From Ostreococcus lucimarinus (lineage: Eukaryota), in the NCBI GenBank assembly GCA_000092065.1, contig CP000586.1: a stretch of 64,000 nucleotides of DNA, one strand, 5' to 3'. A program made the translations under genes and the position numbers. Below are positions 9,235 to 44,900 of the stretch, piece by piece. The notes under the pieces are model-generated. The model had not been told where the DNA came from. It did no database searches and was given only the letters and a program-made list of their open reading frames with translations. The first letter of the stretch is position 1, and every line of letters begins with the position of its first letter.

Positions 9235-9484
9235 GTGCGGCGAGGAAAACGACGCGACACCGGGAGGCGCGCAAAGCGCGGAGGCGGGCGCGCGCGCGAC
9301 GCGCGATGGGCGAACGGGGGATGACGCTTTATCCAGACGCGCGGGACGGCGCGGGACGGCGCGCGCGGATGGCGCCGAGGACGCGCGGGGGACGAGAAGG
9401 AGACGCGCGCGATGCGCGCGCGTTCGATATCGACGCGGGGGGGGGCGAGCGCGAGGACTGACGACGCGACGGACGACGACGCAG
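9235..9484 (+). other. spliceosomal intron of GSH1 (250 nt; GTGCGG...ACTGAC...CAG), contains a G9 homopolymer at 9437-9445
   Basis: A donor and acceptor bracket the only frame change needed to join two segments that are each conserved against plant GCL. Confidence 0.6.
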
Positions 9485-10751
9485 GATCGGGACGGAGCAC
9501 GAAAAGTTTGGGTACGACGAGGCGACCAAGCGAAGGATGGATTATCCAGTCGTGCGGCACGTCCTGAGCTCGCTCGTCGAGCGACACGGGTGGACGCCGA
9601 TAAACGAAGCGGATAACATCATCGGGTGCACGAAGGACAAGCAAAGCGTGACGCTCGAGCCGGGTGGACAGTTTGAACTCTCGGGCGCGCCGCTGGAGAA
9701 CCTGACGCAGACGGACGAGGAGGTGCGATGGCACATCGAGACCGTGAACGCGCTGGCGCGGGAAAAGGGGCACAGATTCTTGGGAATCGGGTTTGACCCG
9801 AAGTGGTCGGTGGCCGAGGTGCCGATGATGCCGAAAGGGAGGTATAAGATTATGCGCGCGTACATGCCGAAGAAGGGCACTCGCGGACACGACATGATGT
9901 TTCGCACGTGCACGATTCAAGTCAACTTGGATTTCGAGAGCGAGCAAGACATGGTGCGCAAGTTCAGGACGTCCCTCGCGCTGCAACCTCTCGCGACGGC
10001 GATGTTCGCCAACTCCGCGTTCGTGGACGGCGCGGACACCGGGTATCAATCCATGCGCTCCGACGTGTGGCGGGACACGGACGACGATCGCACGGGCACG
10101 CTCGCGTGGGTTTTCGACGACGATTTCGGGTTTGAAAAGTACTGCGACTACGTCATGAACGTACCGATGTACTTTGTGTACAGAAACGGCACGTACGTGG
10201 ACGTTTCGGGGGAATCCTGGCTCGATTTTATGGAGGGAAAGCTTCCTCAACTTCCGGGCGACAAGCCGACGATCGACGACTGGGAGCAACACCTCACGAC
10301 TGTGTTTCCGGAGGTTCGTCTCAAGAAGTACATGGAGATGCGAGGTGCCGACGGTGGCTCTTACGAAGCCATCATGGCCCTTCCCGCGCTTTGGGTTGGA
10401 TTGTTGTATTCCGACAAAGCCTTGGACGCGGCCGAGGCGATGGTGAGCGACTGGACGCAAGTCGAGCGCGACGCGCTTCGCGTCGACGTCACCAAGGATG
10501 GATTGTCGGCCAAGTTTAGAGGCGGCACGGCGAACGATATCGCCAAGAAAATGGTCGAACTTTCTGTACAGGGCCTGCAAGAGCGCGGTTTAGGCGAAGA
10601 AGTGTACTTGCGTTACTTGCAAGACATCGTCGACGACGGTAAGAGCGTCGCGGCGCGCATGTCCGAGATGAACGCGCGCGAGTGGAACGGTGATCTCGAA
10701 AAAGTTTACGAGTACGCCACCTTCCCAGACACGCTTCCGAAGATCGTTTGA
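9485..10751 (+). CDS. GSH1: glutamate-cysteine ligase, plant type (GSH1), exon 2
   Basis: Exon 2 begins after CAG| at 9484. Joining to exon 1 gives ...AFR|IGTEHEKFGY..., matching the plant GCL core (IGTEHEKFGF). From there the conserved protein continues (MPKGRYKIMRAYMPKKGTRGHDMMFRTCTIQVNLDF..., FPEVRLKKYMEMRGADGG) to the stop at 10751. The ORF-track start at 9537 is an internal Met. Confidence 0.85.
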
Positions 10752-10793
10752 GTTCTCGGACGACGGTAAAATACACGATTCTTTGTAGTATAA

Positions 10794-11552
10794 CTAAATG
10801 CTAGGTAACGGCGCACAGTCGGTTGGTTTATTCGTCGCCCCTTCGCGTACGATTTTACTCACGGCTCGGAACTGAGGGTGGTTCGCGTCACCCATCATTT
10901 CGAAAACCACGCTCTCCGTGCACGTCAAGATCGCCCCAGCCCGCTCCATCCGTCGCAACGCCACCGCGCGGTCCTCCAATCGAATGCTCGACACCGCGTC
11001 CACGCACACGTAAACGACGCCGTTGGGCTCGTTCGCCAATAAATCGAGCACCGTTTGCACCACGCAAACGTGCGCCTCGAGTCCCACGACGACGTGACGA
11101 ACAGGCGCCTCGTCGAGTGAATTCCGTCCAACGAATGCCTTACCGACATCGTACATGCTGAACGCCGTCTTGGACACGCGGTGACGCCTCGCGCCCGCGA
11201 CGGCTCGGGCCGCGTCCCGCACCGACGCCACCGTCGGCCCGAGCTTCTCCGGCACTTGTTCAGTCATGATGACTCTCGTTCCCCATCCACTTTGCATGGC
11301 GTCGATCGCGCGCAACATCGTCGACGTGTTGTGCGCGACGTGATCGAATCCGGCGACGGCGCTCGAAAACTTTTCTTGAATATCGCACACCCACACGTGC
11401 AACCTCGGACTCGCGGGATCGATTTTGTCCGCGCGATTCATGGCTTCCGCGCGCGTCCCGGAGAGCGCTCTGGCGACTTTCGCGCCGCGTCGACGCGCGG
11501 AGACGGTCGCGGGAACGCGAGACGCGAGCGCGCGCGCGAGCGTCGGGAGCAT
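10794..11552 (-). CDS. isochorismatase-family hydrolase (ISOC-like), with N-terminal presequence
   Basis: Isochorismatase fold signatures are present (VWVCDIQEKF, VVVGLEAHVCVVQT, CTESVVFE). ATG at 11552. Confidence 0.7.
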   Translation of the reverse strand: MLPTLARALASRVPATVSARRRGAKVARALSGTRAEAMNRADKIDPASPRLHVWVCDIQEKFSSAVAGFDHVAHNTSTMLRAIDAMQSGWGTRVIMTEQVPEKLGPTVASVRDAARAVAGARRHRVSKTAFSMYDVGKAFVGRNSLDEAPVRHVVVGLEAHVCVVQTVLDLLANEPNGVVYVCVDAVSSIRLEDRAVALRRMERAGAILTCTESVVFEMMGDANHPQFRAVSKIVREGATNKPTDCAPLPSI

Positions 11553-44438: not shown

Positions 44439-44599
44439 CACCGTCTTCCACCCTGCGCTCGCTCACGATTGTAACATAACGAAATGATTTGTACGCTCGT
44501 CTTCGTCTTCGCGCTTCAACCCGACGCCTTACCAACCGTCGTCCCCCATCGTGCGACGCGCGTCCCCGACACGCCTCGCGCGCGCGCCGACGGGCCGCG

Positions 44600-44740
44600 A
44601 TGGGGGACGCCATCGTAGCGGCGACGCAGTTGAATGACGTTCGCGTCATCATCGCGTTGTTCATCGTCGGTGCGACGTCGATCGCGCTGACGCTTCACTG
44701 GGTGCTTCGAACGGTGTTGCCCTGGTTTATAGGACTCGCG
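44600..44740 (+). CDS. SABRE/KIP/BLTP2 (Fmp27/Hobbit)-like bridge lipid-transfer protein, exon 1 (N-terminal TM anchor)
   Basis: ATG at 44600. MGDAIVAATQLNDVRVIIALFIVGATSIALTLHWVLRTVLPWFIGLA is 47 codons and ends at a GTGCGT donor at 44741. It corresponds to the N-terminal TM helix of SABRE proteins. Confidence 0.55.
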
Positions 44741-44900
44741 GTGCGTCATTGCGCGGCTTCGACGCCTCGAAACGGTCGCGCGATTTCCTTTACGTCGATG
44801 CGACGCGCGAAAGGACGGACGGCGCACGATGGCGGCGGAAGATCGATGAATGATTACTCGACGTGGGACAGTCGACTGACGACGCGAATGGCGACGACAG
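44741..44900 (+). other. spliceosomal intron of the SABRE/BLTP2-like gene (160 nt; GTGCGT...ACTGAC...ACAG)
   Basis: Both exons are in phase 0. The branch motif lies 23 nt upstream of the AG. Confidence 0.55.

What the first reader, a model, noticed from the sequence alone, without database searches (positions are those of the whole stretch)
9235..44900. Shared intron grammar across at least five genes: GTGCG/GTGAG donor and ACTGAC branch point 23-33 nt from the acceptor
Five independently inferred introns each show the same arrangement:
- GSH1, 9235-9484
- hypothetical gene, 18989-19183, minus strand
- eL8, 20460-20884, minus strand
- C2 gene, 25443-25568
- SABRE, 44741-44900
Each begins GTGCGG, GTGAGT, GTGCGC, GTGCGC or GTGCGT. 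Each has an exact ACTGAC 23, 27, 30, 33 and 25 nt upstream of a CAG, TAG or ACAG acceptor. Three of them end ...GACGAC(G)CAG. Such a rigid branch site is typical of intron-poor genomes. The rule lets short 5' exons be predicted where the ORF track only shows GTG/TTG-initiated ORFs. The 3'-end similarity raises the question of whether these introns belong to a repeated 'introner-like' family.
Basis: seen in the sequence. Interest (0 to 1): 0.5.

Follow-up and report, generated by a model that had tools for sequence, protein, structure and literature searches.

The report
Ordinary Ostreococcus introns with known signals
The window is from the tiny green alga Ostreococcus lucimarinus, and the shared "grammar" is the published, unusually strict splice-signal set of its normal introns (GTGCG start, ACTGAC branch site), so the introns are real but ordinary and are not a repeated "introner" family.

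Summary
The window is Ostreococcus lucimarinus CCE9901 nuclear DNA (exact matches to RefSeq proteins).

**Observation.** All five regions are real spliceosomal introns.
- One boundary is wrong. The 'hypothetical gene' intron starts at AAG|GTGCGCG (19138), not at GTGAGT (19183).
- I found four more introns: Snu13 5'UTR, an Rsa3-like gene, a YGGT gene and an unnamed gene at 39296.
- All nine begin GTGCG. Eight have exact ACTGAC and one has TCTGAC. The branch A lies 20-41 nt before the first usable AG.
- All nine are single introns at the 5' end of their gene.

**Evidence that they are introns.**
- Spliced transcript contigs (eL8, YGGT).
- Exact RefSeq models (GSH1, hypothetical gene, Rsa3-like).
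- Homology running gaplessly across junctions (GSH1, C2).
- Intronless orthologues that read straight across the junction.
- Conserved positions in other Ostreococcus lineages: 16 of 17 orthologous introns keep ACTGAC, against 0.3 expected.

**Novelty.** This grammar is already published. Irimia & Roy (2008) found ACTGAC in 87% of confirmed non-chromosome-2 O. lucimarinus introns, GACTGACG in 66.5%, and a GTGCGTG donor.

**Introner idea.** It fails.
- Intron pairs are no more alike than shuffled controls.
- The shared GACGAC...AG ends come from GACG-type low complexity that is common across the window.
- Most of the introns are old and orthologous.

The parts
9235..9484 (+). GSH1 (glutamate-cysteine ligase) intron, 250 nt. 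Signals: CAG|GTGCGG, GACTGACG at 9456-9463, branch A 23 nt before CAG|G.
   Evidence: The spliced protein starting at M72 (484 aa) equals XP_001418312.1 exactly. The alignment to plant GCL structures 9ufc/2gwc is gapless across the junction, E 4e-162. The intron sits at the same position in L022 and L023.
12192..12403 (-). 5'UTR intron of the Snu13/NHP2L1 (L7Ae-family) gene, 212 nt. Signals: GAG|GTGCGCG, GACTGACG (ACTGAC at 12232-12237), branch A 41 nt before CAG. The ATG lies 21 nt after the acceptor.
   Evidence: Found; Pfam Ribosomal_L7Ae. Donor, ACTGAC and AG are conserved at the same place in L022 and L023 although the bodies do not align. The signals are invariant in 10 population copies. 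There is no transcript evidence, so this is inferred.
18174..18273 (-). Intron of the Rsa3-like gene (MAQNLRDQGG...), 100 nt. Signals: CAG|GTGCGCC, branch site TCTGAC (18200-18205), branch A 27 nt before CAG. It is the only window intron without exact ACTGAC.
   Evidence: The spliced 354-aa protein equals XP_001418559.1 exactly. Orthologous introns in L021, L023 and L024 have ACTGAC.
18989..19138 (-). Intron of the 'hypothetical' gene, corrected to 150 nt. Signals: AAG|GTGCGCG, GACTGACG (ACTGAC at 19013-19018), branch A 25 nt before TAG.
   Evidence: The 228-aa product equals XP_001418560.1. UniRef A0A7R9SZ26 (Ostreococcus sp. 'lucimarinus') and the 'merc' entry ERR1712216_975948, both taken to be transcript-derived from their source labels, carry KVSK|TFNL contiguously. 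The orthologue on genomic contig L024 has no intron here and reads KVSKTFNL. The intron is conserved in L021 and L023.
20460..20884 (-). eL8 (RPL7A) intron, 425 nt, placed directly after the start codon. Signals: ATG|GTGCGCG, GACTGACG (ACTGAC at 20489-20494), branch A 30 nt before CAG, T-rich spacer.
   Evidence: Six contigs of about 1 kb (L005-L010) carry ...CGACGACATG|GCTCCGAG... without the intron and encode the exact 267-aa protein. The N-terminus aligns to eL8 in ribosome structures. The ATG|GT(G/A)CG arrangement is the same in L021 and L023.
25443..25568 (+). C2-domain gene intron, 126 nt, phase 1. Signals: ATG|GTGCGCG, GACTGACA (ACTGAC at 25531-25536), branch A 33 nt before CAG.
   Evidence: Pfam C2 matches residues 3-99 to profile positions 1-96 and so spans the junction at residue 8/9. 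The position is the same in L021 (ACTGAC) and L023 (CCTGAC).
27836..28084 (+). YGGT-family gene intron, 249 nt, in frame. Signals: AAG|GTGCGCG, GACTGACG (ACTGAC at 28060-28065), branch A 20 nt before CAG.
   Evidence: The 1039-nt contig L029 joins 27835 directly to 28085 and encodes the exact 198-aa spliced protein. The RefSeq model XP_001418318.1 is only 91 aa. The L021 species has no ACTGAC or recognisable intron at this place; its N-terminus is diverged and not alignable.
39296..39481 (+). Intron of an unnamed 753-aa gene, 186 nt. Signals: GAG|GTGCGCG, GACTGACG (ACTGAC at 39445-39450), branch A 32 nt before CAG. Exon 1 is 39228-39295.
   Evidence: The orthologue in L027 has no intron and reads FWQQAG-S-ALENLTQQRR, matching the spliced FWARAG-S-VLDAVEESLTQRRR. 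L026 has an intron at the same codon, with GTACG and GACTGACG.
44741..44900 (+). SABRE/Hobbit gene intron, 160 nt, phase 0. Signals: GCG|GTGCGTC, GACTGACG (ACTGAC at 44875-44880), branch A 21 nt before CAG. Exon 1 is 44600-44740.
   Evidence: The exon-1 peptide (...LPWFIGLA|) and the intron position are conserved in L028, L026 and L027. All three have GT(G/A)CG donors and ACTGAC, and the bodies do not align except in the close relative L028. Pfam Hobbit matches the gene product.

Best explanation
These are the normal U2-type spliceosomal introns of Ostreococcus lucimarinus, of the class found outside the low-GC part of chromosome 2.

**Arrangement.** In this intron-poor genome about a quarter of the genes in the window carry one intron. 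It is always near the 5' end, and the splicing signals are almost invariant:
- exon|GTGCG(C/T) at the donor;
- (G)ACTGAC(G) at the branch site;
- then the first AG more than about 10 nt downstream, which lies 20-41 nt after the branch A.

**Mechanism (inferred from general spliceosome knowledge).**
- The donor is read by U1 and U6.
- ACUGAC pairs with the U2 GUAGUA box through one G-U wobble, with the A bulged out as the branch nucleotide.
- The acceptor is found by scanning from the branch.

**Intron bodies.** They are fast-evolving GC-rich low-complexity sequence, (GACG)n and (GCGC)n, carrying no shared information. Any resemblance between introns is therefore signals plus composition, not common descent.
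For: **Organism.** Window ORFs equal XP_001418321.1 and XP_001418316.1 of O. lucimarinus CCE9901.

**Splicing shown.**
- Spliced contigs for eL8 and YGGT.
- Proteins that I take to be transcript-derived for the hypothetical gene.
- Exact RefSeq models for GSH1, the Rsa3-like gene and the hypothetical gene.
- Homology across junctions for GSH1 and C2.
- Intronless orthologues reading straight through the junction for the gene at 39296 (L027) and the hypothetical gene (L024).

**Signals across 26 introns (9 in the window plus 17 orthologous).**
- G1, T2, C4 and G5 of the donor are invariant. Position 3 is G in 16, A in 9 and C in 1.
- CTGAC is present in 26 of 26 and ACTGAC in 24 of 26.
- A flanking G precedes the motif in 22 and follows it in 20.
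- The acceptor is the first AG at least 10 nt past the motif in 25 of 26.

**Conservation and literature.**
- Orthologous ACTGAC is retained in 16 of 17 introns against 0.32 expected, while the bodies do not align.
- PMC2483917 reports 87.2% ACTGAC, 66.5% GACTGACG and a GTGCGTG donor for confirmed non-chromosome-2 O. lucimarinus introns.
- PMC3879977 reports AG|GTGCGT plus NCTGAC for canonical Mamiellophyceae introns.
Against: - The Snu13 5'UTR intron rests only on three-species conservation of its signals.
- The C2, SABRE and 39296 introns lack direct transcript evidence here.
- The invariant C at donor position +4 mismatches the standard U1. A preprint reports that Mamiellales U1 is unchanged, so the pairing logic at the donor is not fully explained.
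- Six of nine branch-to-acceptor spacers are not pyrimidine-rich, which is atypical for U2AF-dependent recognition.
Confidence: 0.96

Rival explanations
1. The introns belong to a repeated, recently propagated 'introner-like' family, as in Micromonas. The shared ends would be remnants of a common mobile source element.
For: - Three introns are absent at the orthologous site in one sampled lineage: the hypothetical gene in L024, the gene at 39296 in L027 and YGGT in L021.
- The YGGT and 39296 introns are the most similar pair (z 4.5). They share GTGCGCGCGACGCGCG at the 5' end and GCGCGCGAAC..GACTGACGAA near the 3' end.
- The Micromonas RCC299 IE-C family carries the same GACTGACG.
Against: - The mean pairwise z against dinucleotide shuffles is 0.97.
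- The best gapped global identity is 0.73, built from low complexity. That is below the 80% identity over 80% length criterion used to define introner elements.
- Introns match coding low-complexity tracts as well as they match each other.
- GACGAC is about ten times denser in these introns than the window average, and T-poor GACG-type tracts are widespread in the window.
- Six of the nine introns were present in every other lineage sampled, with bodies that no longer align. They are therefore old.
Confidence: 0.03
2. The motif co-occurrence is chance in GC-rich DNA, and some of the intervals are not introns. They would instead be continuous coding sequence or untranscribed spacer.
For: - The composite regex is at shuffle level, 14 against 12.7.
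- ACTGAC is not enriched overall.
- The YGGT interval is in frame and open, so gene callers read it through as a 281-aa protein on 347 contigs.
- ATG|GTGCGC at 6040 (eIF3g) is a demonstrable false positive.
Against: Transcript contigs, exact RefSeq models, junction-spanning homology, intronless orthologues and cross-species retention of the signals. The positional enrichment has P about 2e-6.
Confidence: 0.01

Closest known systems
Canonical (non-chromosome-2) introns of Ostreococcus lucimarinus, Irimia & Roy 2008, PLoS Genet (PMC2483917)
   Same: Same organism and same signals. Published: GTGCGTG donor, ACTGAC in 87.2% and GACTGACG in 66.5% of confirmed introns. Here: GTGCG in 9 of 9, ACTGAC in 8 of 9, GACTGACG in 7 of 9. 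Intron density is low in both.
   Different: Nothing substantive. This window adds individual gene-model corrections only.
Canonical introns of Micromonas (Verhelst et al. 2013, PMC3879977)
   Same: AG|GTGCGT donor, NCTGAC branch motif, few introns per gene.
   Different: The Micromonas branch motif is reported 43-52 bp upstream of the acceptor. Here it is 20-41 nt in the window and 19-50 nt across lineages.
Micromonas introner elements (D-IE1/2 of CCMP1545; IE-C/ABC-IE of RCC299)
   Same: They are functional spliceosomal introns, and IE-C shares the GACTGACG branch motif.
   Different: Introner elements are multi-copy families with high identity along their whole length. IE-C is about 64-67 nt with one conserved 50-nt motif. 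The window introns are 100-425 nt and mutually unalignable, and most sit at positions shared with other Ostreococcus lineages.
Saccharomyces-type introns of intron-poor genomes
   Same: Near-invariant donor and branch site (GTATGT and TACTAAC in yeast), 5' positional bias, and presence in ribosomal-protein genes.
   Different: The consensus sequences differ (GTGCG and ACTGAC), and the intron bodies are GC-rich and T-poor.
Small introns of the low-GC outlier region (chromosome 2) of Ostreococcus
   Same: Same genome, GT-AG boundaries.
   Different: Those introns are 40-65 bp, have weak donors (GTRNGT) and no clear branch motif, and occur at high density. None of this applies here. The window is 62% GC, the introns are at least 100 nt, and the signals are strong.

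Membership tests
Canonical Ostreococcus/Mamiellophyceae U2-type spliceosomal introns | GT...AG boundaries placed so that the exons join in frame | tested here: met
   All eight coding introns restore the reading frame and the conserved protein sequence. The Snu13 intron lies in the 5'UTR.
Canonical Ostreococcus/Mamiellophyceae U2-type spliceosomal introns | Donor consensus GTGCG(T/C) | tested here: met
   Nine of nine in the window. In other lineages 16 of 17 orthologues begin GT(G/A)CG.
Canonical Ostreococcus/Mamiellophyceae U2-type spliceosomal introns | ACTGAC (extended form GACTGACG) branch motif close to the 3' end | tested here: met
   ACTGAC in 8 of 9, TCTGAC in 1 of 9, GACTGACG in 7 of 9. 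The branch A lies 20-41 nt from the 3' splice site.
Canonical Ostreococcus/Mamiellophyceae U2-type spliceosomal introns | Removal from mature RNA | tested here: met
   Direct for eL8 (L005-L010) and YGGT (L029). Via proteins taken to be transcript-derived for the hypothetical gene. Not directly tested for the other six.
Canonical Ostreococcus/Mamiellophyceae U2-type spliceosomal introns | Location outside the low-GC outlier chromosome region | tested here: inconclusive
   The window is 62% GC, with 2-kb windows ranging from 52% to 71%, and the genes are intron-poor. The chromosome number of the 818,664-bp NCBI record was not determined.
Introner / introner-like elements | High sequence identity between introns of unrelated genes (for example at least 80% identity over at least 80% of length, the criterion in PMC4815162) | tested here: not met
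   Local-alignment z against shuffles averages 0.97, maximum 4.5. The best global identity is 0.73, from low complexity.
Introner / introner-like elements | Many copies genome-wide | not testable with these tools
   Only 64 kb and fetched loci were available. blastn of the introns against the window returns only short low-complexity hits, including hits in coding sequence.
Introner / introner-like elements | Recent, lineage-specific insertion, meaning absence at the orthologous site in relatives | tested here: inconclusive
   Six of nine introns were present in every other lineage sampled. Three are absent in one sampled lineage each, and gain cannot be told from loss.
Low-GC outlier-chromosome small introns | Length 40-65 bp, weak donor, no branch motif | tested here: not met
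   Lengths are 100-425 nt with strong signals.

The most novel reading that the evidence does not exclude
The three introns that are missing at the orthologous site in one sampled Ostreococcus lineage (YGGT, the gene at 39296 and the hypothetical gene) could be recent gains. An intron-generating process would supply ready-made GTGCGCG...GACTGACG...AG ends, and the low-complexity bodies would decay too fast to be recognised as a family. That would amount to a cryptic introner-like activity in Ostreococcus.
Probability: 0.04. Interest if true: 0.45.

Novelty: already known. Interest (0 to 1): 0.08.

Why it matters
It does not change what is known. The GTGCG and ACTGAC grammar of Ostreococcus introns and its link to intron poverty were published in 2008. 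The absence of a compensating U1 change in Mamiellales has also been reported, in a preprint.

The practical value is modest. Combined with ORF context, the rule repairs 5' ends of gene models in this compact genome:
- The YGGT gene is 91 aa in RefSeq but 198 aa in the transcript-supported model.
- The first coding exon of eL8 is the ATG alone.

The rule also helps when reading metagenomic Ostreococcus contigs that were annotated with prokaryotic gene callers.

Tried and rejected
1. **Chimeric protein query.** I concatenated four junction regions into one homology search. It returned nothing, because low-complexity words filled the candidate list. One search was wasted.
2. **Metagenome scans for spliced junctions.** Scans of metagenome contigs for the Snu13 junction and, as a positive control, the eL8 junction both found nothing. 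That collection therefore lacks the transcript contigs, and the Snu13 negative result is uninformative.
3. **Short transcript contigs for Snu13.** The look-up of encoding contigs returns the longest, genomic contigs first, so these could not be reached.
4. **Population copies.** L001-L004 and L011-L020 are 95-100% identical to the window, too close for comparative inference. They only show that the signals are invariant.
5. **GC3-based ORF ranking.** It did not separate coding from spurious ORFs. A codon log-likelihood model did better but still chose the wrong strand for two genes.
6. **Relaxed scan.** A scan with CTRAY plus GT[AG][CA]G yielded mostly false hits inside coding sequence. It gave one real extra intron (Rsa3-like) and one rejected candidate, 4273-4525, which overlaps a minus-strand coding gene.
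7. **T-poor, purine-rich composition as an intron hallmark.** Rejected, because such tracts are widespread in coding low-complexity regions too.
8. **Rfam and tRNA scans.** Both were empty. No snoRNA or snRNA is hosted in these introns at gathering thresholds.
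Full report
**What is at the coordinates.** The five intervals read as described.
- Each starts GTGCG or GTGAG and ends in AG.
- Each holds one exact ACTGAC near its 3' end.
- The branch A is followed by 23, 25, 30, 33 and 21 nt.
- The window is 62% GC.
- ACTGAC occurs only 17 times on both strands.

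**Organism.** Two single-exon ORFs (41811-44438 and 23330-25255) are identical to XP_001418321.1 and XP_001418316.1 of Ostreococcus lucimarinus CCE9901. The same sequences recur in many marine metagenome contigs.

**Are the five introns real?** Yes, with one boundary correction.
- **GSH1.**
  - The spliced product aligns without a gap across the junction to plant glutamate-cysteine ligase structures.
  - Starting from Met72 it equals the RefSeq protein XP_001418312.1.
- **eL8.**
  - Exon 1 contributes only the ATG.
  - Six contigs of about 1 kb (L005-L010) carry ...CGACGACATG|GCTCCGAG... with the 425-nt intron missing. They encode the exact 267-aa protein. This is direct evidence of splicing.
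- **C2.** The Pfam C2 profile (positions 1-96) matches residues 3-99 and so runs across the junction at residue 8/9.
- **SABRE.** The 47-codon exon 1 (...LPWFIGLA|) and the intron position are conserved in three other lineages, L028, L026 and L027.
- **The 'hypothetical' gene.**
  - The next 45 nt encode VSLHDVPVWGLKVSK. This peptide is present in RefSeq XP_001418560.1, in UniRef A0A7R9SZ26 (Ostreococcus sp. 'lucimarinus') and in a 'merc' entry, ERR1712216_975948. I take the last two to be transcript-derived from their source labels. The peptide is also present in orthologues.
  - The real donor is AAG|GTGCGCG at 19138.
  - In genomic contig L024 the orthologue has no intron and reads KVSKTFNL straight through.

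**More introns with the same arrangement.** Four more turned up when I scanned every ACTGAC, and then CTRAY, for a nearby donor, an acceptor and a downstream coding frame.
- **Snu13 5'UTR intron (12192-12403, minus strand).** It is supported by three-species conservation of donor, ACTGAC and AG. These signals are invariant in ten population copies.
- **Rsa3-like gene intron (18174-18273, minus strand).** Its spliced product equals XP_001418559.1. Its branch site is TCTGAC.
- **YGGT-family gene intron (27836-28084).**
  - It is in frame, so prokaryotic gene callers read it through.
  - Contig L029 joins 27835 directly to 28085.
  - The RefSeq model is a 91-aa fragment.
- **Intron of an unnamed gene at 39296-39481.** An intronless orthologue in L027 reads FWQQAG-S-ALENL across the exact junction. 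L026 has an intron at the same codon.

Pfam annotation of the remaining ORFs gives about 36 genes with complete domains. Nine genes therefore carry one intron each, always at the 5' end. The coding part of exon 1 is 3, 25, 49, 57, 68, 141, 186 or 188 nt, or the intron lies in the 5'UTR.

**The grammar, quantified.** The set is 26 introns: nine in the window and 17 orthologous introns from other Ostreococcus lineages.

| Feature | Count |
|---|---|
| Donor G1, T2, C4, G5 | invariant (26 of 26) |
| Donor position 3 | G in 16, A in 9, C in 1 |
| CTGAC | 26 of 26 |
| ACTGAC | 24 of 26 |
| G before / after the motif | 22 / 20 |
| Branch A to 3' splice site | 19-50 nt (20-41 nt in the window) |
| Acceptor is the first AG at least 10 nt past the motif | 25 of 26 |

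**Is it more than chance?**
- As a bare pattern, no.
  - ACTGAC occurs 17 times against 19.7 +/- 4.5 in shuffles.
  - GTGCG is actually depleted, 320 against 372.
The proposed whole-assembly regex would therefore be dominated by false positives. ATG|GTGCGC at the eIF3g start (6040) is one example.
- By position, yes. Six ACTGAC sit in sense orientation just upstream of strong coding ORFs against 0.34 expected. The caveat is that the TGA inside the motif defines the ORF boundary in four of the six.
- By conservation, yes. Sixteen of 17 orthologous introns keep ACTGAC in the last 60 nt against 0.32 expected. Their bodies no longer align.

**Introner-like family?** No.
- Pairwise local alignments of the window introns score like dinucleotide shuffles: mean z 0.97.
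- The one outlier, YGGT against the 39296 intron at z 4.5, is GCGCGACG low complexity plus the signals.
- No pair approaches the 80% identity over 80% length criterion used to define Micromonas introner elements.
- Intron sequences hit low-complexity coding tracts elsewhere in the window as strongly as they hit each other.
  - They reflect composition: GACGAC occurs at 21.6 per kb on the sense strand of the introns, against 2.3 per kb window-wide.
  - T-poor GACG-type tracts are common in coding regions too.
- Six of the nine introns were present in every other lineage sampled, so they are old.
- Three are missing in one sampled lineage each. That fits ordinary loss or gain and cannot be polarised here.

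**Comparison with the literature.** The grammar is already described.
- Irimia & Roy 2008 (PMC2483917) devote a section to 'The peculiar case of Ostreococcus'. For EST-confirmed O. lucimarinus introns outside chromosome 2 they report ACTGAC in 87.2%, GACTGACG in 66.5% and a strong atypical donor, GTGCGTG. The window gives 8 of 9, 7 of 9 and 9 of 9.
- Verhelst et al. 2013 (PMC3879977) describe AG|GTGCGT plus NCTGAC as the canonical Mamiellophyceae intron. They note that the Micromonas RCC299 IE-C family shares GACTGACG with Ostreococcus canonical introns.
- Roy & Bowser (bioRxiv 10.1101/2022.06.08.495308) report that Mamiellales U1 snRNA keeps the standard pairing sequence despite the +4C donor.

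**Mechanism.**
- Shown: the intervals are removed from RNA or are absent from the coded protein, and the three signals are under strong constraint.
- Inferred from general spliceosome knowledge: ACUGAC pairs with the U2 GUAGUA box through one G-U wobble with the A bulged, and the acceptor is the first suitably spaced AG downstream.
- Unexplained: C at donor position +4 is invariant against a standard U1, and most branch-to-acceptor spacers lack a pyrimidine tract.

**Verdict.** The 'shared grammar' reading is right but is textbook for this genus. The introner suggestion is not supported. Interest is low.

Noticed in passing
window 5944-5992; 20564 and 20757 (eL8 intron); 12274 (Snu13 intron); L021, L022 and L023 orthologous introns: Telomere-repeat-like 'telo-box' motifs (TAGGG/CCCTA, including an exact CCCTAAA). 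The window has only 14 TAGGG on both strands, and six of them sit at three translation-related genes. Three lie within 45 nt of each other, about 50-95 nt upstream of the eIF3g ATG. Two are in the eL8 intron and one is in the Snu13 5'UTR intron. Orthologous eL8 and Snu13 introns in two other lineages keep (T)TAGGG although the bodies do not align. No intron of the other seven genes, in any lineage, has the motif. From memory, this resembles plant telo-box elements in ribosomal-protein genes, and it might help explain why these introns are retained.
   Followed up: partly
window 27787-28632: The RefSeq model of the YGGT-family gene (XP_001418318.1, 91 aa) lacks the N-terminal 107 residues. A spliced transcript contig (L029) supports a 198-aa protein with a 49-nt first exon. 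Prokaryotic gene callers on 347 metagenome contigs read the in-frame intron through as a 281-aa protein.
   Followed up: yes
L024 141-806; L027 3598-3720; L021 800-1200: Intron presence or absence varies between Ostreococcus lineages. The hypothetical-gene intron is absent in L024, whose neighbouring Rsa3-like gene keeps its intron. The 39296 intron is absent in L027. The YGGT region of L021 shows no intron. The direction, gain or loss, was not determined.
   Followed up: partly
window introns, branch site to 3' splice site: Six of nine branch-to-acceptor spacers are purine- and GC-rich with 0-8% T (for example gacgcgacggacgacgacgc), so they have no polypyrimidine tract. Only the eL8, C2 and Rsa3-like introns have T-rich spacers. 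The introns as a whole are T-poor (4-17% T) on the sense strand.
   Followed up: partly
L005-L008, first 110-160 nt: Four independent spliced eL8 contigs agree with the genome for only 10-12 nt upstream of the ATG. Further upstream they continue into unrelated sequence; L005 carries what looks like an rbcL fragment. This suggests a very short 5'UTR, with assembly chimeras seeded by CGACGAC k-mers.
   Followed up: no
other lineages, donors in L023, L027 and some in L021/L026: The lower-GC lineage (L023 and L027, about 57% GC) uses GTACG at most donors where O. lucimarinus has GTGCG. One donor in L024 is GTCCG. Positions +4 C and +5 G never vary.
   Followed up: partly
window 18342 (+) and 6040 (+): Two look-alikes that are not splice signals. 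GGACTGACG at 18342 lies antisense in the 5'UTR of the minus-strand Rsa3-like gene. ATG|GTGCGC at the eIF3g start codon is in-frame coding with no branch motif downstream.
   Followed up: yes
window 25990-26120: The C2-domain protein carries four tandem copies of a YVVQQQQQQPA-type repeat after the C2 domain.
   Followed up: no
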